From: an uncultured Alphaproteobacteria bacterium
GTDB taxonomy: Bacteria; Pseudomonadota; Alphaproteobacteria; RF32; CAG-239
NCBI GenBank assembly: GCA_944391405.1
Contig: CALXTN010000005.1
Span: 1,515-65,514 of the forward strand
Length of the DNA stretch: 64,000 bases
Direction of reading: 5' to 3'
Positions 1 to 9,199 of the stretch are shown here, piece by piece. The notes under the pieces were generated by a model, which saw only the letters and a list, made by a program, of their open reading frames with translations, made no database searches and was not told the origin of the DNA. Both the position numbers and the translations under genes were made by a program. Every line of letters begins with the position of its first letter. Positions within the stretch are counted from its first letter, which is position 1.

Positions 1-218
1 GTTTCTATACGATAAAGGTCGCCACCAATCTTTTCATGAATAGCTTCGGCAACTTCTTTTGTGTTACCTGACCATGAATAGTAGGCAATTAGGATTTTTT
101 TATTTGTGGTCATGTTGATATCCTTGTTTGGCTCAGCATTACTATTGGTTATGGTTAAAATGACAGTACTTAGTACGTAAAGTGATTTTTTTATTATATT
201 CAGTATTTTATTTCTCAT
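1..218 (-). CDS. Flavodoxin-family protein with an N-terminal signal-peptide-like segment, truncated at its 3' end by the window edge
   Basis: Minus-strand ORF MRNKILNIIKKSLYVLSTVILTITNSNAEPNKDINMTTNKKILIAYYSWSGNTKEVAEAIHEKIGGDLYRIET. It carries the flavodoxin signature YSWSGNT..A. RBS AAGGAGAG lies just upstream of the ATG at 218, and an alternative internal ATG is at 113. It is absent from the ORF track because it runs off the window. Confidence 0.5.
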   Translation of the reverse strand, partial: MRNKILNIIKKSLYVLSTVILTITNSNAEPNKDINMTTNKKILIAYYSWSGNTKEVAEAIHEKIGGDLYRIE

Positions 219-249: not shown

Positions 250-280
250 AGTATAATTTTTAGAGTATACTCTAAGTCAA
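250..280 (-). promoter_or_regulatory. MerR-type promoter with a palindromic operator in the spacer, upstream of the flavodoxin gene (site 1)
   Basis: Read on the minus strand: TTGACT (280..275), a 19-nt spacer, then TATACT (255..250). The spacer holds the perfect 14-bp palindrome TAGAGTATACTCTA (261..274). A 19-bp spacer is the MerR-family hallmark. Confidence 0.6.
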
Positions 281-308: not shown

Positions 309-1031
309 TTATTGATTAATTTTTTTTGAAAAATATAGTCCTACTTCAAATAACGCATATGTTGGGAGGGTTAACATTAGCTGGCTTACCACATCAGGTG
401 GAGTGAGAATGGCTGCTATAATCAGTATGAGCGTAAATATATAAGGGCGTTTTGATTTGACTGTTTCATAAGAGCATATGCCTGATTTTATTAAAGAGTA
501 TGTGATTAGGGGAAATTGGAACATTAAGCCGAAGATTACGGAAAGCCATAAGCTTAATCCGATAACATTTGATATGCCTAGCGTTGCTTTTAGTTCTGAT
601 GTTGCAAAACTTGCTCCGAATTTGATGATTAAAGGAAGTATAAATGTAATGCAAAAGATTACACCAAGAATGAATAAGAAACTGGAACTTAAAACTATCT
701 TTTTTATGAACTGTTTTTCATTTTCATATAAAGCTGGAAGGATAAAATTCCACAATTGCCTTGCGATGTATGGGAAACAAAGCAATAAATCAAGTACAAG
801 TGCTAATTTAATTTGCAAAATGAAAACTTCGGCTGGGGAGAAAAAATTTAGTGTGACAGGTGTGTCTTGAATTAATTTTTGTATTAACCAATCCAAAAAA
901 TGCGGAGATGCAAATAAGGTTAAAGGAAGAATTATTCCTAGTGCGGTTAGGCAACGTAATAAGGTCTTTCGCAAAGCTTCTAAATGCGAAATTAAACTTT
1001 CTTCTTCTGAATTTTGTTTGTTTTCTTGCAT
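309..1031 (-). CDS. tatC: Twin-arginine translocase subunit TatC
   Basis: 240-aa polytopic membrane protein with the typical TatC length, hydrophobicity profile and sequence. The tatA stop abuts the tatC start. Confidence 0.9.
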   Translation of the reverse strand: MQENKQNSEEESLISHLEALRKTLLRCLTALGIILPLTLFASPHFLDWLIQKLIQDTPVTLNFFSPAEVFILQIKLALVLDLLLCFPYIARQLWNFILPALYENEKQFIKKIVLSSSFLFILGVIFCITFILPLIIKFGASFATSELKATLGISNVIGLSLWLSVIFGLMFQFPLITYSLIKSGICSYETVKSKRPYIFTLILIIAAILTPPDVVSQLMLTLPTYALFEVGLYFSKKINQ

Positions 1032-1247
1032 TTATTCTTTTTTGCTGTTTTTCTCTTCGTCTTGTTGGGCGACTTTTTCAATTGTTTCTTTTAAGTTATC
1101 TGCTTCGTTTTGAAGGGCTTCTTTAGCTTTTTTATATTCATAAGATGCTTTACCAAAGGCTTTGGCTAATTCTGGAATCCGTTTTCCGCCGAAGAGTAAT
1201 AATACGACAACTAGTATTAGTAAGAGTTCGCTTAATCCGATAGACAT
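1032..1247 (-). CDS. tatA: Twin-arginine translocase subunit TatA/E
   Basis: 71 aa: an N-terminal TM helix ([27 protein letters not shown]), then an amphipathic helix and an acidic tail. It sits immediately upstream of tatC. Confidence 0.9.
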
Positions 1248-1259
1248 ATTTGACTCCTT

Positions 1260-2579
1260 TTATTGTTTAAGTGTTTTTTGAAATTCGGTTGCATTAATTT
1301 TTATTGCTGATACGGGGCATACAGCTTGGCATGCTCCGCAGCCGATACATCTTTCAGTATCAATTTTTGGAAAATCTCCTTGCGCTTTGGTTATAGTGGA
1401 GCGAGGACATTCCATTACGCATAGTCCACATTGTATGCACGAATCGATATTAACTGAGGCTAAACCAATTTGCGTATGTTGTTTTTCTTTTAGAGTTAGT
1501 CTTTTTATAGCACCGCTGGGGCATACTTCAGAGCATTTGTGGCAATTGTAATCGCAAAAGCTTTTTTGGTATTTTAGATGTACAACTGGGAATTCATCGT
1601 TGGCTTTTTGAATTATTTTCATGGGACAGTTTGCAACGCATAAATTGCAATTTAGGCATTTATTGGCAAATGTTTTACTATCTCTTGCTCCAGGGGGAAG
1701 TAGAATATTTTTTAATCTTTTAGCAACGTTTTCGCCTAGTTTTATACTATTTTTGTAGGCGATTGTCAAAATTGCTAAAGCACCAGCACTGATTAGAAAA
1801 CGACGACGTCCAGTATTAATTGGTGTAGTTCCTCTTTGTTTTTTTTCTTTTTCAAAAGAAATTCCACTATTGTGGCAGAGACTTAAACAGCGAAAGCATT
1901 TTATGCATGTTTCATTATCAACGCTTTTATTTTTGAAATCAATACAATCTGCAGGGCATTTCTGAGTACAGAGACCACACGCGACACAGGCGTCTTTGTT
2001 TATGTTAATTTTGTATAAAGAGTGTTTTGCAATTATTCCCAAGATTGTACCGACAGGACAGATGTTTGTGCAGAAATATCTGCCCTTAAACCATGTTAAA
2101 AGCGCAATGACGGCTATCAGGGTTAATCCGTATGTGGCTCCACTGACTGCTGATCCAAAAATAGAATAAGGATCTATTAGGCGCATTAGGTATGCGGTTC
2201 CTCCTAATAGAGTACCTAATGTTAGTGCCGCTATGAAATATTTTAATGGCGAATTCTTTTGGGTGGGGTGTTTTTTACGATGGAAGATAAGCAAATATAA
2301 TTCTTGTAGTAGCCCGAGAGGACATATTGTGGAGCAGTATATTCTTCCAAAGAGAAAAGTTATAATGAGGAGGAGGGTAATTAGTATTCCTGACGATATG
2401 GTAAAAGTGGTGATAGAGCTCTGTATTAGAGGAGTAATATTTATATTAAATATTTTGATGGGATAAAATAACCCTAATAGTCCGCCGATGCTTATGATGG
2501 CCATCAGGAGGGCAATGGTTATCCTTGTTTTTTGAAGTGTTTTAGCTTTTAGCATCTTATTTTCCTCTTCTGTCGTCAT
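1260..2579 (-). CDS. Membrane polyferredoxin, NapH/MauN-like N-terminal half fused to a NapG-like multi-[4Fe-4S] half with an internal RRRF twin-arginine-like motif
   Basis: The N-terminal TM region carries two CxxxCP motifs (GRIYCSTICPLG, GRYFCTNICPVG). Six CxxCxxCxxxCP-type cluster motifs are present. TGRRRFLISAGALAILTIAYK lies mid-protein. Confidence 0.65.
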   Translation of the reverse strand: MTTEEENKMLKAKTLQKTRITIALLMAIISIGGLLGLFYPIKIFNINITPLIQSSITTFTISSGILITLLLIITFLFGRIYCSTICPLGLLQELYLLIFHRKKHPTQKNSPLKYFIAALTLGTLLGGTAYLMRLIDPYSIFGSAVSGATYGLTLIAVIALLTWFKGRYFCTNICPVGTILGIIAKHSLYKININKDACVACGLCTQKCPADCIDFKNKSVDNETCIKCFRCLSLCHNSGISFEKEKKQRGTTPINTGRRRFLISAGALAILTIAYKNSIKLGENVAKRLKNILLPPGARDSKTFANKCLNCNLCVANCPMKIIQKANDEFPVVHLKYQKSFCDYNCHKCSEVCPSGAIKRLTLKEKQHTQIGLASVNIDSCIQCGLCVMECPRSTITKAQGDFPKIDTERCIGCGACQAVCPVSAIKINATEFQKTLKQ

Positions 2580-2647: not shown

Positions 2648-2675
2648 AAAGCAGGTAATATACCTGCTCTTTTTA
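2648..2675 (-). terminator. Intrinsic terminator ending the phosphoesterase-cupin-Isf operon
   Basis: Hairpin AGCAGGTA-ata-TACCTGCT (2650..2668) with a T-run on the minus strand (plus-strand AAAAAA 2645..2650). Confidence 0.55.
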
Positions 2676-2685
2676 CGTATTTATG

Positions 2686-3228
2686 TTATATGTTTTTGCC
2701 CATTTCGTAGGCTTCTTTTAGCGCAGGACTTCCTTTTATGTCTCCAATTTGCCAAGCGTCGGTTCCATAAATAACACCTTTTTCATGAGCGTTGTTTAGA
2801 CAGTCTTCAGTAAAACCGCGAAAACTTTCCAATACGCGTTCCATATTGGCTCGACTGTTGTCGGCAGCGGCTAAGATAAAGTAAAAATCTTTGTTGCTAA
2901 TTTCTTCATATCTTGGAACGGTTCTATCAATCAGGGTTTTCATTTGTCCGTTCATATTGTAAAAATAAACGGGTGTGCCCATGACAATTACGTCGGCATT
3001 TACCATTTTATCTAAAATTTTTACCATATCATCCTTTTGTACACATTTGTGGGTGGTGTTGCAAACCCCACATCCGCGGCAAAAATTTATTTGATAGTCG
3101 TTTACGTGTATTTTTTCTATATTATGACCTGCTTCTTTGGCTCCTTTTATGAATTCATCGCAAAGAACATCGGAATTTCCGCCTTTGCGAAAACTTGCAG
3201 ATAATACAAGAACGTTTTTGCTCATCAT
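2686..3228 (-). CDS. Iron-sulfur flavoprotein (Isf) / NADPH-dependent FMN reductase-like flavodoxin-fold protein
   Basis: Flavodoxin-like N-terminus (LVLSASFRKGGNS) plus the compact Cys motif CRGCGVCNTTHKC (C-x2-C-x2-C-x5-C) typical of the Isf family. Confidence 0.7.
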   Translation of the reverse strand: MMSKNVLVLSASFRKGGNSDVLCDEFIKGAKEAGHNIEKIHVNDYQINFCRGCGVCNTTHKCVQKDDMVKILDKMVNADVIVMGTPVYFYNMNGQMKTLIDRTVPRYEEISNKDFYFILAAADNSRANMERVLESFRGFTEDCLNNAHEKGVIYGTDAWQIGDIKGSPALKEAYEMGKNI

Positions 3229-3704
3229 TTATACTCCTCATTTGTTACAGGTTCTAACCATGTGGTTGTATTGTTGGGAACGTTGGTTTCAAGAGAAATG
3301 TGCGTAAACCAAGAATCTGGCGCTGCGCCATGCCAATGTTCAATGTTGGGGGCTATGCGAACTATGTCTCCTTTCTTTAAAATTTGTATTTTCCCATTCT
3401 TTTCTTGGTAGCGTCCCTCTCCATTTAAAATCAGTAAAATTTGTCCGCCACTGTGTTTATGCCAGTTAGTGCGTGCTCCAGGTTCAAAAGTGACGTTGCC
3501 TATCGGGGCGTTGAATGTGTCATCTTTTTTACTTAGCATATTTAAGTAGGTTTGTCCGGTAAAAAATTGTCCGTAAGGATTTTTCTCGCCTTGGGCAAAA
3601 ATGGTGTCTATTGGTGCTTTGTTCATTTCGGTGGCTCCTGTAATTGATGTTGTTAGGGTTAAAATAATTGTGCTTAGATATAAAATCAGTTTTTTTGATT
3701 TCAT
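3225..3704 (-). CDS. Secreted cupin-domain protein
   Basis: N-terminal signal peptide; cupin beta-barrel motifs (GARTNWHKH...G). Overlaps the Isf gene by 4 nt. Confidence 0.55.
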   Translation of the reverse strand: MKSKKLILYLSTIILTLTTSITGATEMNKAPIDTIFAQGEKNPYGQFFTGQTYLNMLSKKDDTFNAPIGNVTFEPGARTNWHKHSGGQILLILNGEGRYQEKNGKIQILKKGDIVRIAPNIEHWHGAAPDSWFTHISLETNVPNNTTTWLEPVTNEEYK

Positions 3705-3718
3705 GTATTTCCTCCTTG

Positions 3719-4843
3719 CTATTTTGATTTGGGGTGTATGGTTATTATGCTTATTTCACTAGGGGCTAAGAAGCGCATTTGTGGGCCCCATTGTCCGGCT
3801 CCATTTGATACGTAAATTTGTGCATTGTTATTCATTGTGTACAATCCGGATAAATATTTGTTTGCTAGCTTTACAAATATATGGAATGGGAAAATCTGTC
3901 CTCCGTGTGTATGACCAGAAATTTCTAGGTCAAAATTATTTTGCTTATCAAAATCTACAGGAGTGTGTGATATTAGTATTTTATATTGTGAGTTTGTACT
4001 GGTTTTGAAAGCGGTTGGCAAAGATATTGGTATTTGGTGTTGTTTAGCTGAAAACCAGTCAGGTATACCTGCTAAGTATATATTGGGAGTTATGTTTGTG
4101 CCGCTATTTTCTAAAAATGTAAATCCTAGTTTTTTTAATTCATTAGTTGTTTCTTGATAGCTGGTGTAGAATTCATGATTGCCAGTTACAAAATAAATTC
4201 CTTGTTTGGCTTTTAATTTACTTAAAAGTTGAGTGATAGATTGCACTTTGTTTACTTCATCATCAATAATGTCGCCTGCGAGGAGAATTATATCTGCGTT
4301 TTCTTGATTGGTTTTGTTTATGATATTCTCTATTTTTTGAGGATTTATGGTGCGGTGGATGTGTAAATCACTCAAAACGGCAATTTTGAGTGGTGTTATG
4401 ATTTTGTCACTGTATAGTGTTGATGTCTTAATCTCTGGTGTGGCAATTCCTTTTAGTAATGCGTATGTGGTAAGGATAATTGCTATTCCGAGGCTGATTA
4501 AACTGTTATTTAAATGGTATTCTTTTGCAAATGGGGATCCGATGTGTTGAGGCGATATTTTGTGTGCTATTAACCATAAGGTATCTCTGAATATAGATAA
4601 TGAAAATAAAATTATGCATCCAACATAGATATAGTATAGAGTATATCTGTAGATAGGGTAGAGATTTCCAAATAGATTTTCAAATTTGTAACTGACGAAA
4701 AGAGGAATGCAACCGAATAAGAGAGCAATGGTTAAAGATATAAATTTGTAAATTACCGGTGTATTGATAAAGAATATATAACGAAAATATAGCGATAATG
4801 TTACAATGCATCCTAGAAATGAAGTAGTTACGGCGCAGGTCAT
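3719..4843 (-). CDS. Membrane-anchored calcineurin-like metallophosphoesterase
   Basis: About 4 N-terminal TM helices, then the phosphoesterase motifs D-x-H, GDIIDD and GNHE. Confidence 0.75.
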   Translation of the reverse strand: MTCAVTTSFLGCIVTLSLYFRYIFFINTPVIYKFISLTIALLFGCIPLFVSYKFENLFGNLYPIYRYTLYYIYVGCIILFSLSIFRDTLWLIAHKISPQHIGSPFAKEYHLNNSLISLGIAIILTTYALLKGIATPEIKTSTLYSDKIITPLKIAVLSDLHIHRTINPQKIENIINKTNQENADIILLAGDIIDDEVNKVQSITQLLSKLKAKQGIYFVTGNHEFYTSYQETTNELKKLGFTFLENSGTNITPNIYLAGIPDWFSAKQHQIPISLPTAFKTSTNSQYKILISHTPVDFDKQNNFDLEISGHTHGGQIFPFHIFVKLANKYLSGLYTMNNNAQIYVSNGAGQWGPQMRFLAPSEISIITIHPKSK

Positions 4844-4888
4844 TAATGATTCTCCTATAAAAATAAGTACGACTCGATTTTGTATTTA

Positions 4889-4919
4889 GGATAATTGTTA
4901 GAGTTAACTCTAAGTCAAG
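4889..4919 (-). promoter_or_regulatory. MerR-type promoter/operator (site 2) for the phosphoesterase-cupin-Isf operon, divergent from merR
   Basis: Read on the minus strand: TTGACT (4919..4914), then the perfect palindrome TAGAGTTAACTCTA (4899..4912) inside a roughly 19-nt spacer, then TTATCC. Confidence 0.5.
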
Positions 4920-4951
4920 CCTTTTTTTGAGAGATTGAAATTTTATACACT

Positions 4952-4965
4952 TAGAGCCTACTCTA
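4952..4965 (+). promoter_or_regulatory. Third operator-like palindrome TAGAGCCTACTCTA, upstream of merR
   Basis: Same TAGAG-N4-CTCTA half-sites as sites 1 and 2. It lies about 15 nt upstream of the TTGACA -35 of the merR promoter (4980..4985). Confidence 0.45.
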
Positions 4966-5031
4966 ATGGTTTCTTCAAGTTGACATTGTTTTTGTATGCT
5001 GTATTTTTAGAGATAAAAAAAGGAGTGTGTT

Positions 5032-5463
5032 ATGCGGTATTCTATTGGGCAAGTAGCTAAAAAATTAGGACTTACAACTCATACTATTCGTTATTATGAT
5101 AAAGAGGGGTTGTTGCCTTTTGTCAGAAAAGGTTCTTCGGGGGCTCGAGTTTTTGAGGAGGATGATGTTGATTGGTTGATTATTGTTGAATGTCTTAAAG
5201 GTACAGGGATGCCTTTGAAAGAAATTCGAACTTATATTCAATTGTGTCAACAAGGTGATGCTACTCTACAAAAAAGATTTGAAATGTTTAAAAAACAAAA
5301 AGAAAAAATAGAAAAACAGATGAATACATTGAAGCAATATATGGAGAAAATTGATTTTAAAATTGCCTATTATGGTGATGCTATAAAGCATGGTACGGAT
5401 GATATTTATATTCGTAATACGTGGCTGGCTACAGAAAGAGAGCGTTTGTTTGGGCATAAATGA
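5032..5463 (+). CDS. MerR-family transcriptional regulator, NmlR/AdhR (thiol-based carbonyl/electrophile sensor) subfamily
   Basis: N-terminal HTH (MRYSIGQVAKKLGLTTHTIRYYDKEGLL). A conserved Cys54 lies in VECLKGTGMPLKEI (TGMP motif). There is a C-terminal coiled coil but no SoxR or MerR metal-Cys cluster. Confidence 0.8.
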   Translation: MRYSIGQVAKKLGLTTHTIRYYDKEGLLPFVRKGSSGARVFEEDDVDWLIIVECLKGTGMPLKEIRTYIQLCQQGDATLQKRFEMFKKQKEKIEKQMNTLKQYMEKIDFKIAYYGDAIKHGTDDIYIRNTWLATERERLFGHK

Positions 5464-5477
5464 CAGATTAAAAATAC

Positions 5478-5771
5478 TTAAATTATTCCTCTGATTGCAT
5501 CAAAAATGGGAGTGGTTAAATTGTTTCCATTATTGTTTTTGGTATGATATTTGGAAAGTAGTTGATAATAGTAGATTAGAGAGAATAAACGTACAGAACA
5601 TGTTAATCCCATTTGTGTATTTTTACGTGCATTGATCATTCCAATAAGGGTGTTTCTTTTTATGTTTTCTCTTTTACAGATATTATCAATGGCTTCCCAT
5701 TCTGCATTTGCTAATCGCATACTTGTTTTATGGTTATCAATAAAAATTACTTTACTGGATAATTCTGTCAT
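5478..5771 (-). CDS. RHH_4 ribbon-helix-helix domain protein (family often mis-annotated as aryl-sulfate sulfotransferase), paralog 1
   Basis: KTSMRLANAEWEAIDNICKRENIKRNTLIGMI...LGLTCSVRLFSLIYY matches the S-x-RL..W.A...I......L.....SSAIRVFVL.YY pattern of alphaproteobacterial RHH_4 proteins. Confidence 0.65.
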   Translation of the reverse strand: MTELSSKVIFIDNHKTSMRLANAEWEAIDNICKRENIKRNTLIGMINARKNTQMGLTCSVRLFSLIYYYQLLSKYHTKNNNGNNLTTPIFDAIRGII

Positions 5772-5932: not shown

Positions 5933-7315
5933 ATGTTTTTTAGGTTTATTGTTTGTTTAATTGTCTATTTTAATATAAACTTGTGTTATGCTCAATATGA
6001 GCGGCCAGGATGGTTTTTGTCTGATGAAATAACAGAAAATGTAGGGGTGAATAAAAAAGTAAAAAATGCAGATGAGATATATGGTGAAACAGGGAAATCT
6101 TTGTTAAATAATGTTAAAAATCATAATTTTAAAAAGAAACAGCCACAATCTATTGAAATAATAGACAGAGGTTTTTCTTTAGGAAGGAAAGAGCTTAAAT
6201 TAACATCTATTTTGCTTAAAAATGTTTATGAAGATAATATGGGAAAAAATTTTGTCTTTTCTCCATTATCTTTTTACGCAGTTGCTGTTTTGTTAGCAAA
6301 TGGTGTTGTTGATTCAACATTGTGGGAGTTTTCGAAAATTTTTTCTGTGTTTCGTTTAGTTGATGTTAATGAGGTGTTTAAAAAGTATTTGTACTCTAAA
6401 GGAGAATCTTACATTTGGAGTATTTCTTTGTGGGGAAATGTTTTTAGTCAGAGATATCGAACATTGATAGGTGATATTTTGAGTGCAGAAACTTGGAATT
6501 TACAAGGTAATACTAATACTCTTAATATGTGGATTAGTGAAAAAACAAAAGGTAAAGTTAACAAAATTATTGAAGAACGCCCGGTTAACGATGATGAACT
6601 TTTTGTTGTTTCCTCGTTAGGCTTTTATCAAAACTGGAAATATCCATTTAATAAAAATTTTACTAGAAAAAAGATTTTTTATGCAGTTGATGGTAAAAGA
6701 ACTATGGTTAATATGATGTATCAAAGTGGTATATTTGAATATTTTGAAAATGATTTTATGCAAGTTGTTCGCTTATTTTTTGACACAGGCGACTATATTA
6801 CCTTCTATCTTCCTCATGAAAATTCAGATTTTAGTAAGTTTGTTGCCAATTTTGAGGATTATAAAATGGAGCCAGAATTTCAATATTGTAAAGTTGATTT
6901 ATTTATACCAAAGTTTCAATTGTCTAATAATGCTAATAATATTCGTGAAAAATTTGCACTTCTGGGAGTGAGCGAAGTTTTTTATTCTATTTATAATTTT
7001 GCTAAAATGATTAATTTTGATATGCAAGCTAAAGTATCAGATGTTTTTTTGAATGTTCGTGTAAGAATTGACGAAGGGAATGAGCAAAAAATATTGAAGG
7101 ATTCTTTTATTAAAGGAAATTTAGAAAACAATATATCTGTTATTTTTAATGCTAATAGACCTTTTATTTTTATGATTAATAAAGGTGATATTGTTGGTGG
7201 TTTTGTTAAGGGTAATAAATTAAATCTTGACGAATTAGTTGAAAATAATGATGAGAAAGTAGGTGAAGTTATTATTAGAAAAGATGAAACTTCTACTTGG
7301 TATGATAATAAGTAG
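5933..7315 (+). CDS. Secreted serpin (serine protease inhibitor family) with a non-canonical hinge
   Basis: Signal peptide; NFVFSPLSFYAVAVLLANG N-terminal serpin motif; a C-terminal FNANRPFIFMI that fits the PROSITE serpin signature exactly. The RCL region RIDEGNEQKILKDSF lacks an Ala-rich hinge. Confidence 0.85.
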   Translation: MFFRFIVCLIVYFNINLCYAQYERPGWFLSDEITENVGVNKKVKNADEIYGETGKSLLNNVKNHNFKKKQPQSIEIIDRGFSLGRKELKLTSILLKNVYEDNMGKNFVFSPLSFYAVAVLLANGVVDSTLWEFSKIFSVFRLVDVNEVFKKYLYSKGESYIWSISLWGNVFSQRYRTLIGDILSAETWNLQGNTNTLNMWISEKTKGKVNKIIEERPVNDDELFVVSSLGFYQNWKYPFNKNFTRKKIFYAVDGKRTMVNMMYQSGIFEYFENDFMQVVRLFFDTGDYITFYLPHENSDFSKFVANFEDYKMEPEFQYCKVDLFIPKFQLSNNANNIREKFALLGVSEVFYSIYNFAKMINFDMQAKVSDVFLNVRVRIDEGNEQKILKDSFIKGNLENNISVIFNANRPFIFMINKGDIVGGFVKGNKLNLDELVENNDEKVGEVIIRKDETSTWYDNK

Positions 7316-7342: not shown

Positions 7343-7630
7343 TTAAATTATTCCTTTTATAGCATCACACATTGGTGAGGTACGATTACTGTTTTTGTGA
7401 TCAAGTTGGTACTGCAGAGCTTTTCTGTAGTAAATTAAAGAAAATAATCTGACTGATGATGTTAGCCCTAATTTATCATCTTTGTTGGCTTGTATTAATT
7501 CAAATAAATTTTTTCTTTTAATGTTTTCTCTTTTACAGATTGTATCAATTGCTTTCCACTCAGCTGGAGCTAGACGCATGCTTGTTTTGCGGTTATATAT
7601 CGAAACGACGCGATTTGATAATGATGCCAT
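7343..7630 (-). CDS. RHH_4 ribbon-helix-helix domain protein, paralog 2
   Basis: About 55% identical to the 5478..5771 product (KTSMRLAPAEWKAIDTICKRENIKRKNLFELI...LGLTSSVRLFSLIYY). RBS GGAGG. Confidence 0.65.
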   Translation of the reverse strand: MASLSNRVVSIYNRKTSMRLAPAEWKAIDTICKRENIKRKNLFELIQANKDDKLGLTSSVRLFSLIYYRKALQYQLDHKNSNRTSPMCDAIKGII

Positions 7631-8227: not shown

Positions 8228-9199
8228 CTATATTTTTGATATGATTTTAGCTATATCTTTTGCTGTATTCAAAAAGGGTGGGGTTGATGTTGATTTGTTT
8301 ACAATGTTTTTATTAAGTTCTATTGCGTATCCATTGTCATATAGGGATTGAACAAAGCGCAGATGTTTTGGGGTTAACCAATTTTTACCTGTAAAAATTT
8401 GTAATTTTTTTTGGGTTGCAGTAGCTTCGCTACACATGGATACTGAATCTCCAGTAACAACAAGATTGTCAGCGCATGCTAAAAAACCAAGGTAAGGGTT
8501 ATTTTCTTTGGAACCCCATAGATATGCATAGTGAGGGTATTTCTCTAAATAGGACATTATTTTTTTTTCAGCATTTAATCCTGTGCGGCGGGATGTGGTT
8601 ATTAATAGTGATCCACCTTCTGTCTCTTTTAAGAGGGCAATCGATTTAGCTAATTCTTCCGCATTTTCTATAGAAAAGGGATGTCTTTTTATAGCCCCAC
8701 CGACGATTACTGCTGTAATTGGATGTGGCAAATGTGAAAATTTTGTTATCCATTCTTTATATGCGCTTTCTAATTTTTCTTTTGTTATGAAATGAGGACA
8801 GCCAATTGTATAATGGATATTAGGGGCATGTAGTTTGTTTTTATCATGCTCAGGGGTGAATATTAGGTCAAATTCTTTGATTCCAAAATACCCAATGTGT
8901 CCTAATTGCACTAATTTTGTTTTAGAATTTTGTTTTTTTATGTAACGAGCAATTGGGGCTGTTCTTCTGGTTGAGGACAGCACAATATCAGGATAAGGTG
9001 CTTTTATTTCTGCTTTTGATTCTTGTGTTAGCCCTATTAAAGTTCTGCCACGGATAAAATTTGGTAAGCTCGCTAATTTAGTATATTCTATTTTTTTATA
9101 TATCACGGAGGTATTTGCAGAATTTAAGTAATTTGCAATACCTTCTGCTTGGTGACGGCTACCAGCTCTGTTGTCTATAAGAATCCAAATATTTTTCAT
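8228..9199 (-). CDS. ELM1-family (mitochondrial fission ELM1 / DUF1022) glycosyltransferase-like protein
   Basis: 323 aa; the N-terminus MKNIWILIDNRAGSRHQAEGIA and overall pattern fit the alphaproteobacterial ELM1 family. Confidence 0.6.
   Translation of the reverse strand: MKNIWILIDNRAGSRHQAEGIANYLNSANTSVIYKKIEYTKLASLPNFIRGRTLIGLTQESKAEIKAPYPDIVLSSTRRTAPIARYIKKQNSKTKLVQLGHIGYFGIKEFDLIFTPEHDKNKLHAPNIHYTIGCPHFITKEKLESAYKEWITKFSHLPHPITAVIVGGAIKRHPFSIENAEELAKSIALLKETEGGSLLITTSRRTGLNAEKKIMSYLEKYPHYAYLWGSKENNPYLGFLACADNLVVTGDSVSMCSEATATQKKLQIFTGKNWLTPKHLRFVQSLYDNGYAIELNKNIVNKSTSTPPFLNTAKDIAKIISKI

What the first reader, a model, noticed from the sequence alone, without database searches (positions are those of the whole stretch)
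4844..5463. AdhR/NmlR-type MerR regulator with divergent promoters carrying TAGAG-N4-CTCTA operators
The MerR protein has the NmlR/AdhR hallmarks: Cys54 in VECLKGTGMPLKEI, and no metal-binding Cys cluster. Two operator-like palindromes lie in its upstream region, TAGAGTTAACTCTA (4899..4912) and TAGAGCCTACTCTA (4952..4965). The first sits inside a -35 TTGACT / roughly 19-nt spacer / -10 arrangement on the minus strand. That promoter drives the metallophosphoesterase-cupin-Isf operon (4843 down to 2686), which ends at an intrinsic terminator at about 2650..2675. A 19-20 bp spacer containing the operator is the defining architecture of MerR-family DNA-distortion activation. The implied regulon is unusual for this subfamily (a membrane phosphoesterase, a periplasmic cupin and an Isf-type FMN reductase, rather than adhA/adhC), suggesting a distinct electrophile or redox stress response.
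Basis: partly seen in the sequence, partly recalled or inferred. Interest (0 to 1): 0.6.

Follow-up and report, generated by a model that had tools for sequence, protein, structure and literature searches.

The report
NmlR-type stress regulator with three operators
This is a correctly spotted but ordinary member of a known class of bacterial stress-sensing gene switches (NmlR/AdhR-type MerR regulators), here in an uncultured gut alphaproteobacterium, controlling flavoprotein, cupin and phosphoesterase genes instead of the usual alcohol dehydrogenase.

Summary
Three perfect 16-bp palindromes TTAGAG-N4-CTCTAA lie at 260-275, 4898-4913 and 4951-4966, against 0.04-0.25 expected by chance. The 143-aa MerR protein (5032-5463) is a close structural relative of HiNmlR (H. 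influenzae), keeps the clade's invariant Cys54 and has no metal-binding Cys cluster.

The palindromes fit the published NmlR recognition sequence YYNGAGNNNNCTCNRR. The core of site 1 is identical to the operator in real Neisseria nmlR-adhC loci.

Two sites sit in leftward promoters TTGACT / 19 nt / TATnCT. One drives the metallophosphoesterase-cupin-Isf operon. The other drives an exported Flavodoxin_4 gene cut by the window's left end. This 19-nt geometry holds in 60 of 63 related promoters and 116 of 123 metagenome sites.

The third site is not inside the regulator's own promoter. It lies about 56 bp upstream of its inferred start, a position conserved in the alphaproteobacterial clade.

The regulon is unusual only against characterised members. 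Flavodoxin, FMN reductase, cupin, CMD (carboxymuconolactone decarboxylase), aldo/keto reductase and this same phosphoesterase recur behind this promoter in many uncharacterised relatives.

Verdict: a new member of a known kind, of modest interest. The inducing signal is unknown.

The parts
5032..5463 (+). NmlR/AdhR-type MerR-family regulator gene (143 aa; Cys54 and Cys72 only)
   Evidence: Pfam MerR_1, MerR and MerR-DNA-bind match. Best NCBIfam hit is NmlR. Best PDB hit is HiNmlR, E = 3e-41. The AF2 model has pLDDT 91 and best matches HiNmlR at TM 0.92, rmsd 1.5 A. C54, R20 and K24 are invariant in 82 homologs.
4898..4913 (.). Operator O1, TTAGAGTTAACTCTAA, inside the spacer of the operon promoter
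   Evidence: Its core is identical to the operator in the Neisseria nmlR-adhC locus L212. It is an invariant block in the intergenic alignment of relatives.
4888..4918 (-). MerR-type promoter of the operon: -35 TTGACT (4918-4913), 19-nt spacer (4912-4894), -10 TATCCT (4893-4888)
   Evidence: Read directly from the sequence. Of 63 related operator contexts with a flanking TTGAC, 60 have TAnnnT at exactly 19 nt; so do 116 of 123 metagenome sites.
4951..4966 (.). Operator O2, TTAGAGCCTACTCTAA, 13 nt upstream of the regulator's -35 (centre about -56) and 53 bp from the centre of O1
   Evidence: The distance from the IR to TTGAC is fixed at 13-15 nt after the 14-mer core in 13 unique alphaproteobacterial contexts. 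Conserved in alignment A4.
4980..5007 (+). Ordinary sigma-70-type promoter of the regulator gene: TTGACA, 16 nt, TATTTT
   Evidence: Best promoter-like match in the region, 10 of 12. TTGAC is invariant in relatives.
3719..4843 (-). First operon gene: membrane-anchored metallophosphoesterase (374 aa; about four N-terminal hydrophobic segments)
   Evidence: Pfam Metallophos; hydropathy. It is variably present in relatives: absent in L085/L086, present in L001, L087 and L009. It is also the first gene behind the same promoter string in 5 of 72 metagenome hits.
3225..3704 (-). Cupin_2 protein (159 aa) with a signal-peptide-like N-terminus
   Evidence: Pfam Cupin_2. NCBIfam mandelonitrile-lyase-like, 130 bits against a 140 cutoff. 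Best PDB hits are TM1010 and the GtHNL cupins. One N-terminal hydrophobic segment.
2686..3228 (-). Isf-type iron-sulfur flavoprotein (FMN_red fold; 180 aa)
   Evidence: Pfam FMN_red. C50-x2-C53-x2-C56-x5-C62 fits the Isf compact motif CX2CX2CX5-7C (PMC3164229).
2650..2668 (.). Bidirectional intrinsic terminator that ends the operon
   Evidence: -16.6 kcal/mol, z = -5.6, U6 tail on the minus strand.
260..275 (.). Operator O3, TTAGAGTATACTCTAA
   Evidence: Conserved with its promoter in L001, L085, L003, L088, L006 and L021.
250..280 (-). Second MerR-type promoter: TTGACT (280-275), 19 nt, TATACT (255-250)
1..218 (-). 5' part of an exported Flavodoxin_4 gene (ATG at 218-216; runs off the left end of the window)
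   Evidence: Translation. The identical locus L082 shows the full 194-aa Flavodoxin_4 gene, followed by SIMPL and NUDIX genes.

Best explanation
The 143-aa protein is an NmlR/AdhR-clade MerR regulator: a winged HTH, a long coiled-coil helix and no metal or drug sensor domain.

As a dimer it binds three TTAGAG-N4-CTCTAA operators. Two of them (O1 at 4898-4913, O3 at 260-275) lie in the over-long 19-nt spacers of leftward sigma-70-type promoters, TTGACT-N19-TATnCT. One promoter drives the metallophosphoesterase-cupin-Isf operon. The other drives an exported Flavodoxin_4 gene.

Inferred from the MerR-family paradigm: the unmodified dimer holds these promoters in a poorly transcribed state. Modification of the conserved thiol Cys54, with Cys72 possibly helping, by an electrophile or oxidant re-orients the DNA-binding domains. 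That untwists the spacer and activates transcription.

The third operator (O2) lies about 56 bp upstream of the start of the regulator's own, ordinary promoter. Most likely it mediates autoregulation.

Shown here: protein family and fold, operator identity and enrichment, promoter geometry and its conservation, operon structure.
Inferred: activation by DNA distortion, the thiol switch, the nature of the signal, and the sign of the autoregulation.
For: Protein:
- HiNmlR is the best solved relative by sequence profile, E = 3e-41, against 4e-12 for the best non-NmlR-like MerR protein.
- HiNmlR is also the best match to the predicted fold: TM 0.92, rmsd 1.5 A.
- C54, R20 and K24 are invariant in 82 homologs.
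- Only two Cys are present, and none lies in the loop after the coiled-coil helix.

Operators:
- 3 hits against 0.04 expected.
- They fit the published YYNGAGNNNNCTCNRR exactly (PMC5001606).
- Sites with at most one mismatch: 72 in the 23.7 kb upstream of homologous regulators, against 32 in 833 kb elsewhere.
- The core is identical to the operator in Neisseria nmlR-adhC-estD loci.

Geometry:
- TAnnnT lies at exactly 19 nt in 60 of 63 contexts and 116 of 123 contexts.
- Phylogenetic footprints coincide with the IR, the -35 and the -10.

Regulon theme: ADH, AKR, SDR, CMD, flavodoxin, FMN_red and cupin genes sit behind the same promoter in relatives.

Literature: Cys54 is required for activation in HiNmlR, and the equivalent Cys52 in AdhR (PMC5001606, PMC4776306).
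Against: - There are no transcription start sites, binding data or expression data for this organism. Activation as opposed to simple repression is inferred.
- The protein is only 38% identical to HiNmlR.
- Two of the four HiNmlR base-contacting residues differ: His17 for Tyr17 and Tyr21 for Phe21.
- HiNmlR's second functional cysteine (Cys71) is matched only by Cys72, one position off, and that residue is not conserved in the family (53 of 82).
- The protein scores below the NCBIfam NmlR cutoff (99 against 175). HiNmlR itself scores lower, at 85, so this is uninformative.
- No alcohol dehydrogenase target lies behind the three operators found in the window.
- A MerR-family site at about -56 of an ordinary promoter has no described mechanism in this clade.
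Confidence: 0.85

Rival explanations
1. The protein is a plain repressor. The palindromes overlap the promoters and simply occlude RNA polymerase until the protein leaves the DNA. There is no distortion-type activation.
For: O1 and O3 overlap the last base of the -35 hexamer. In Bacillales relatives the regulator's own operator lies just downstream of an extended -10, a classic repressor position. The HiNmlR-DNA crystal form was interpreted as a repressor state.
Against: The strictly conserved 19-nt spacer (60 of 63; 116 of 123) is the signature of promoters that need spacer remodelling. With a plain repressor there would be no selection against 17-nt spacers. Characterised clade members (HiNmlR, AdhR) activate.
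Confidence: 0.08
2. HiNmlR-style layout: the functional -35 is the central TTAACT inside the palindrome, as published for PadhC and PnmlR, and not the flanking TTGACT.
For: PMC5001606 states that NmlR-type regulons carry the -35 within the IR centre. O1's centre reads TTAACT on both strands.
Against: The four central bases vary freely (TTAA, TATA, CCTA, CTTA and others). O3's centre (TATACT) has no -10 at 16-19 nt. The flanking TTGAC plus a 19-nt TAnnnT is what is conserved. Even the Neisseria and Haemophilus adhC promoters can be read in the flanking register: TTGCTT or TTGCCT, 19 nt, TAAACT.
Confidence: 0.05
3. The palindromes are chance repeats, or sites for a different factor unrelated to the adjacent MerR gene.
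For: None beyond the lack of direct binding data.
Against: Three hits against 0.04 expected. Co-occurrence with the regulator family holds across Alphaproteobacteria, Firmicutes, Elusimicrobia, Verrucomicrobia and Fibrobacter. The sites match the consensus derived from the HiNmlR-DNA crystal structure.
Confidence: 0.02

Closest known systems
NmlR of Haemophilus influenzae / Neisseria (HiNmlR; PDB 5D8C, 5D90, 5E01)
   Same: Same fold and domain plan, with no sensor region. Cys54 is conserved, as are the DNA-contact residues Arg20 and Lys24. The operator consensus YYNGAGNNNNCTCNRR is the same, and the core TAGAGTTAACTCTA is identical in Neisseria loci. The regulator is divergent from its main target, and the target-strand register is the same: a -35-like hexamer, 19 nt, then TAnnnT.
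   Different: - 38% identity.
- His17 and Tyr21 replace Tyr17 and Phe21.
- Cys72 rather than Cys71, and no Cys95.
- An extra predicted C-terminal helix (130-140).
- Targets are a metallophosphoesterase, a cupin, Isf and a flavodoxin, not adhC-estD.
- A strong flanking -35 (TTGACT) instead of the published embedded -35.
- A separate second operator about 56 bp upstream of the regulator's own promoter, rather than one shared operator for overlapping divergent promoters.
- The host is an uncultured gut alphaproteobacterium.
AdhR (YraB) of Bacillus subtilis
   Same: A thiol-dependent MerR-type activator with a single essential Cys (Cys52) and no sensor domain. Its regulon contains carbonyl-detoxifying enzymes, including a CMD-family protein (yraC). 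CMD genes also follow this promoter in relatives (PMC4776306).
   Different: The AdhR sequence and operator could not be read here because the paper is not held. The window has no ADH target. The Bacillales relatives found here do have a divergent Zn-ADH, in 18 of 54 promoters.
Canonical MerR/CueR-type promoters (PmerT, PcopA)
   Same: A -35 hexamer followed by a 19-nt spacer that holds the dyad, with the dyad starting at the last base of the -35 (from established knowledge of these promoters, and the description in PMC5001606).
   Different: There is no metal-binding loop, and the effector is presumably a thiol-reactive small molecule.

Membership tests
MerR family | N-terminal winged HTH followed by a long coiled-coil dimerisation helix | tested here: met
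   Pfam MerR_1 (72 bits), MerR and MerR-DNA-bind match. AF2 model: helices 5-12, 16-24, 43-57, 62-73 and 75-120.
NmlR/AdhR clade | Absolutely conserved cysteine in helix alpha3 (Cys54 of HiNmlR, Cys52 of AdhR) | tested here: met
   Cys54 aligns with HiNmlR Cys54. It is invariant in 20 and in 82 homologs.
NmlR/AdhR clade | No C-terminal metal- or drug-binding sensor region | tested here: met
   The protein is 143 aa, with Cys only at 54 and 72. After helix alpha5 come a 9-residue loop without Cys or His pairs and one short helix. The fold matches the structure described as 'HiNmlR ... lacking the sensor domain'.
NmlR/AdhR clade | Operator of the form YYNGAGNNNNCTCNRR | tested here: met
   All three sites fit. 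They are the only three matches in 64 kb, against 0.25 expected. The consensus comes from PMC5001606.
NmlR/AdhR clade | DNA-contact residues Tyr17, Arg20, Phe21, Lys24 | tested here: inconclusive
   Arg20 and Lys24 are identical. His17 and Tyr21 are substituted. Across 82 homologs, position 17 is Tyr in 44, His in 28 and Ser in 8, and position 21 is Tyr in 81.
NmlR/AdhR clade | -35 element embedded in the centre of the inverted repeat (stated to be unique to NmlR regulons) | tested here: not met
   The central 4 bp are not conserved. The flanking TTGACT, a 19-nt spacer and TAnnnT are conserved. The same flanking register is also readable in true NmlR loci, so this feature may not be defining.
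NmlR/AdhR clade | Regulon contains a class III / thiol-dependent alcohol (formaldehyde) dehydrogenase | tested here: not met
   None of the three operators in the window precedes an ADH. Only 64 kb could be searched. Bacillales relatives have a divergent Zn-ADH.
NmlR/AdhR clade | NCBIfam NF041849 (NmlR equivalog) score above the cutoff of 175 | tested here: not met
   The score is 99.2 bits. HiNmlR itself scores only 84.7, so the model is narrower than the clade and this failure is uninformative.
NmlR/AdhR clade | Induction by formaldehyde, carbonyl or nitrosative stress through the conserved Cys | not testable with these tools
   This needs expression or genetic data.
MerR-type (distortion-activated) promoter | 19-20 bp spacer between -35 and -10, containing the dyad | tested here: met
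   TTGACT-19-TATCCT and TTGACT-19-TATACT. The same holds family-wide, in 60 of 63 and 116 of 123 sites.
Iron-sulfur flavoprotein (Isf) | Flavodoxin-like FMN_red fold with the compact motif CX2CX2CX5-7C | tested here: met
   PF03358 at 84 bits. C50, C53, C56 and C62 are present. The motif is cited from PMC3164229.

The most novel reading that the evidence does not exclude
Two linked readings are not excluded.

(a) The flanking -35 / 19-nt-spacer register is the true architecture of the whole NmlR/AdhR clade, including the Neisseria and Haemophilus adhC promoters. In that case the published 'embedded -35, unique among MerR regulons' would need revision.

(b) In the gut alphaproteobacterial clade, the second operator is fixed about 56 bp upstream of the regulator's own promoter and 52-54 bp (five helical turns) from the first. 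It would then mediate a mode not described for this clade: upstream (class-I-like) autoregulation, or cooperative action of two dimers.
Probability: 0.3. Interest if true: 0.45.

Novelty: new member of a known kind. Interest (0 to 1): 0.3.

Why it matters
The finding gives a clean, testable regulon for an uncultured gut alphaproteobacterial lineage. One thiol-switch regulator, three operators and two target units encode an Isf-type flavoprotein, an exported cupin, an exported flavodoxin and a membrane phosphoesterase.

It shows that the NmlR/AdhR clade is not confined among Gram-negatives to Neisseria and Pasteurellaceae, as a 2016 review stated (PMC4776306).

It also shows that the clade's typical targets extend well beyond formaldehyde dehydrogenase.

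As a by-product, the strictly conserved 19-nt-spacer geometry offers a simple rule for predicting NmlR-type regulons: TTGACY-TAGAG-N4-CTCTA-N5-TAnnnT. It raises a question about the promoter assignment published for HiNmlR.

None of this changes how MerR-family regulation is understood.

Tried and rejected
- NCBIfam NmlR cutoff as a membership test. Rejected, because HiNmlR itself fails it.
- The promoter scanner's alternative reading, TTGACT-16-AATTAT. Rejected, because only the 19-nt TAnnnT position is conserved across relatives.
- A second leftward promoter at O2 (TTGAAG ... TATAAA). Rejected: the spacer is 25 nt, there is no -35, and it is not conserved beyond relatives above 85% identity.
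- A rightward promoter TTGAAA-18-TACTCT over O2. Not conserved in L001 or L085.
- An operator in front of the NapH-like polyferredoxin-tatAC unit. None was found.
- An Rfam family in the leaders or intergenic regions. None was found.
- Literature searches for the exact operator string and for NmlR together with flavodoxin or cupin gave nothing relevant. A search for 'NmlR' alone was swamped by a clinical acronym.
- The AdhR paper and the HiNmlR supplement are not held, so the AdhR operator and the published promoter figure could not be read.
- Solved structures gave no functional lead for the phosphoesterase (no hit). For the cupin they gave only uncharacterised or hydroxynitrile-lyase-type relatives.

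Full report
**Observation**

TAGAGTTAACTCTA lies at 4899-4912 and TAGAGCCTACTCTA at 4952-4965. Each extends to a perfect 16-bp palindrome, TTAGAG-N4-CTCTAA. A third copy, TTAGAGTATACTCTAA, lies at 260-275.

The 14-mer pattern has three exact hits in the 64-kb window, against 0.04 expected from dinucleotide-preserving shuffles. Allowing two mismatches adds only one chance-level hit.

The ORFs are as stated:
- a 143-aa MerR-family protein at 5032-5463 (+);
- on the minus strand, a 374-aa metallophosphoesterase (3719-4843), a 159-aa Cupin_2 protein (3225-3704) and a 180-aa FMN_red protein (2686-3228). The cupin and FMN_red genes overlap by 4 nt.

The operon ends at a hairpin at 2650-2668. On the minus strand it folds at -16.6 kcal/mol (z = -5.6) and is followed by U6.

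**The regulator**

Its best NCBIfam match is the NmlR equivalog model, at 99 bits against a cutoff of 175. I calibrated this cutoff. HiNmlR, the structurally characterised NmlR of H. influenzae, scores only 85 bits on the same model. The cutoff therefore says nothing about clade membership.

A profile of 20 homologs finds HiNmlR (5D8C, 5D90, 5E01) as the best solved structure, at E = 3e-41 over residues 1-126. Next come two uncharacterised Bacillus and Listeria MerR proteins (3GPV, 3GP4). Metal- and drug-sensing MerR proteins start at E = 4e-12.

Pairwise identity to HiNmlR is 38% over 122 residues. An AlphaFold model (pLDDT 91) superposes on HiNmlR with TM 0.92 and rmsd 1.5 A.

The protein has only two cysteines, Cys54 and Cys72. 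Cys54 aligns with HiNmlR Cys54, which that study showed to be required for activation and which is absolutely conserved in the clade (PMC5001606; PMC4776306). It is invariant in all 82 homologs I aligned, as are the DNA-contacting Arg20 and Lys24. Position 17 is His here and Tyr in HiNmlR. Position 21 is Tyr here and Phe in HiNmlR.

After the long helix there is a short Cys-free loop and one extra short helix (130-140). There is no sensor domain.

**The operators**

Counago et al. derived from the HiNmlR-DNA crystal structure the recognition sequence YYNGAGNNNNCTCNRR for NmlR-type regulators (PMC5001606). That pattern matches exactly the three sites in the window and nothing else, against 0.25 expected.

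I fetched 80 loci encoding relatives with 46-90% identity from reference genomes. Sites with at most one mismatch to TAGAG-N4-CTCTA number 72 in the 23.7 kb lying within 300 bp upstream of the regulator genes. They number 32 in the remaining 833 kb, an enrichment of about 79-fold.

The association holds in gut Alphaproteobacteria, Bacillales, Clostridia, Lactobacillaceae, Elusimicrobia, Verrucomicrobia and Fibrobacter.

I then retrieved true nmlR-adhC-estD loci of the Neisseria/Haemophilus type. Their operator is TAGAGTTAACTCTA in the Neisseria-type loci (L211, L212), identical to the window's O1 core, and TAGAGTGAGCTCTA in the Haemophilus-type locus L213.

**Promoter geometry**

On the minus strand, O1 is preceded by TTGACT, whose last T is the first base of the palindrome. 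TATCCT follows after a 19-nt spacer. O3 has TTGACT, 19 nt, then TATACT.

Among 63 unique operator contexts in the related loci that carry TTGAC directly 5' of the palindrome, 60 have TAnnnT at exactly 19 nt. No other spacing exceeds 9.

An independent scan of metagenome contigs for TTGACTTAGAG-N4-CTCTAA-N4-TA returned at least 120 stretches. In 116 of 123 sites the hexamer is completed by T at 19-nt spacing. In 53 of 115 unique sites a MerR homolog lies within 400 nt. Many of those homologs are only 30-38% identical to the window protein.

Alignments of the intergenic regions from relatives with 56-90% protein identity show invariant blocks that coincide with the palindrome plus AGTCAA, the ATA of the -10, the second palindrome and the regulator's TTGAC.

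The scanner's alternative -10 at 16 nt (AATTAT) falls on non-conserved columns. I reject it.

The dyad starts at the last base of the -35, leaving 7 and 12 nt of the spacer on either side of its centre. This is the register of classical MerR and CueR promoters (my knowledge of those promoters; general description).

**The second palindrome**

O2 has no TTGAC flank on either strand. Instead the regulator's own promoter, TTGACA-16-TATTTT, begins 13 nt after the 16-mer. It is the best promoter-like match in the region. This puts the O2 centre about 56 bp upstream of the inferred start and 53 bp from the O1 centre.

The same distance, 13-15 nt after the 14-mer core, recurs in 13 unique alphaproteobacterial contexts. 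The O1-O2 spacing is 52-54 bp in relatives.

In two relatives (L008, L013) a single palindrome serves both roles. In Bacillales the regulator's operator lies instead just downstream of an extended -10, TGnTAnAAT.

O2 is an upstream site of an ordinary promoter. Its role, presumably autoregulation, is inferred.

**The regulon**

Locus L082 carries the same regulator protein sequence and the same gene order. It shows that the gene cut by the window's left end encodes a 194-aa Flavodoxin_4 protein with a signal-peptide-like N-terminus, followed by SIMPL and NUDIX genes.

The cupin also has one N-terminal hydrophobic segment. The phosphoesterase has about four. The FMN_red protein carries C50-x2-C53-x2-C56-x5-C62, the compact Isf motif.

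Gene content varies among close relatives:
- The phosphoesterase is absent at 89% regulator identity (L085, L086).
- The whole operon is absent at 68% (L088).
- At 64% identity (L089), a cupin-CMD-FMN_red unit with its own operator lies 2 kb away.

Family-wide, the first genes behind 54 such promoters were tallied. In the metagenome sample of 72 promoters they were tallied.

| First gene | Related loci (54) | Metagenome sample (72) |
|---|---|---|
| Zn-ADH (all Bacillales) | 18 | - |
| Flavodoxin_4 | 9 | 4 |
| FMN_red | 6 | 3 |
| Metallophos | 4 | 5 |
| Cupin_2 | 4 | - |
| Fe-ADH | 3 | - |
| MerR itself | 3 | 14 |
| DXP-synthase-like | 2 | 8 |
| SDR | - | 7 |
| AKR | - | 6 |
| CMD | - | 5 |

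A dash means the family was not among those I recorded for that sample.

The regulon is therefore atypical only against the few characterised members: adhC-estD in Neisseria and Haemophilus, and adhA, yraA and yraC in B. subtilis. The overall theme, carbonyl- and redox-active enzymes, fits a thiol-reactive electrophile or oxidant as the signal. The actual inducer cannot be inferred.

**Comparison with the known**

By fold, conserved cysteine, absence of a sensor region and operator, this is a member of the NmlR/AdhR clade.

One published 'defining' feature is not met. Counago et al. place the -35 elements inside the centre of the palindrome and call this unique among MerR regulons. Here the central four bases vary freely, and the conserved -35 is the flanking TTGACT.

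The Neisseria and Haemophilus adhC promoters can also be read in the flanking register: TTGCTT or TTGCCT, 19 nt, TAAACT. They align column for column with the window's promoters. They can equally be read as TTAACT-19-TATGTT. Only start-site mapping can decide. I could not read the original promoter figure or Kidd et al. 2005.

A 2016 review stated that Gram-negative NmlR homologs occur only in Neisseria and a few Pasteurellaceae. The hundreds of homologs from gut alphaproteobacterial MAGs extend that range. In a neighbour-joining tree, arbitrarily rooted on HiNmlR, they form one clade next to the Fibrobacter and Bacteroidales members, inside a family rich in Firmicutes.

**Verdict**

The finding is real and correctly interpreted. 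It is an uncharacterised but recognisable member of a known regulator clade, using the known operator and the canonical MerR promoter geometry.

Its local particulars are of modest interest: the target genes, the upstream second operator, and the host lineage. The by-product question about the published NmlR promoter assignment is the most novel thread, and it remains open.

Noticed in passing
window 5478-5771 (-), 5933-7315 (+), 7343-7630 (-): A 460-aa serpin gene is flanked by two small RHH_4 (PF13467) ribbon-helix-helix genes. This arrangement is conserved in relatives (L081-L087). A bacterial serpin bracketed by paired RHH genes is unexplained.
   Followed up: no
window 309-2579 (-): A NapH-like membrane polyferredoxin (439 aa) is followed by tatA and tatC. 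This unit is wedged between the two NmlR-controlled units, and the synteny is kept in L082, L085, L087 and L088. No operator precedes it. The exported cupin and flavodoxin next to it have Sec-like signal peptides, not twin-arginine ones.
   Followed up: partly
window about 4866-4874 (minus-strand leader of the operon); also L087, L089, L008, L009, L013, L014: A conserved AATCGA element lies about 8 nt after the -10 in leaders that precede the 'MTCAVTT...' membrane phosphoesterase. L089 has only a 69-aa remnant ORF with that N-terminus, in front of cupin-CMD-FMN_red.
   Followed up: partly
L012:4065-5813, L014:4242-5996, and 8 of 72 metagenome loci (e.g. L102, L114, L185, L199): DXP-synthase-like genes of 582-591 aa are repeatedly the first gene behind the same TTGACT-operator-19-nt promoter. 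This is an unexpected recurrent target for an NmlR-type regulator.
   Followed up: no
L017, L025, L026, L031-L035, L040-L058 (Bacillales loci), about 40-60 nt upstream of the regulator start codon: In Bacillales relatives, a second operator variant (TAGAGTTAACTCGA) lies 12-13 nt downstream of a conserved extended -10 (TGnTAnAAT) of the regulator gene. This is a classic autorepression position, unlike the -56 position in the window's clade.
   Followed up: partly
L211-L213:2400-2500 (Neisseria/Haemophilus nmlR-adhC intergenic regions): The adhC-strand sequence reads TTGCTT or TTGCCT, then a 19-nt spacer holding the operator, then TAAACT. This is the same register as the family-wide promoters. 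It is an alternative to the published 'embedded -35' assignment.
   Followed up: partly
L010 (contig binned as Limosilactobacillus gorillae): Its regulator groups with the gut alphaproteobacterial clade. Its divergent gene is the same membrane phosphoesterase, at 49% identity. The contig is probably mis-binned, or the module was transferred.
   Followed up: no
window 8228-9199 (-): A 323-aa protein matches the Mito_fiss_Elm1 family (PF06258) according to the precomputed annotation of identical loci.
   Followed up: no
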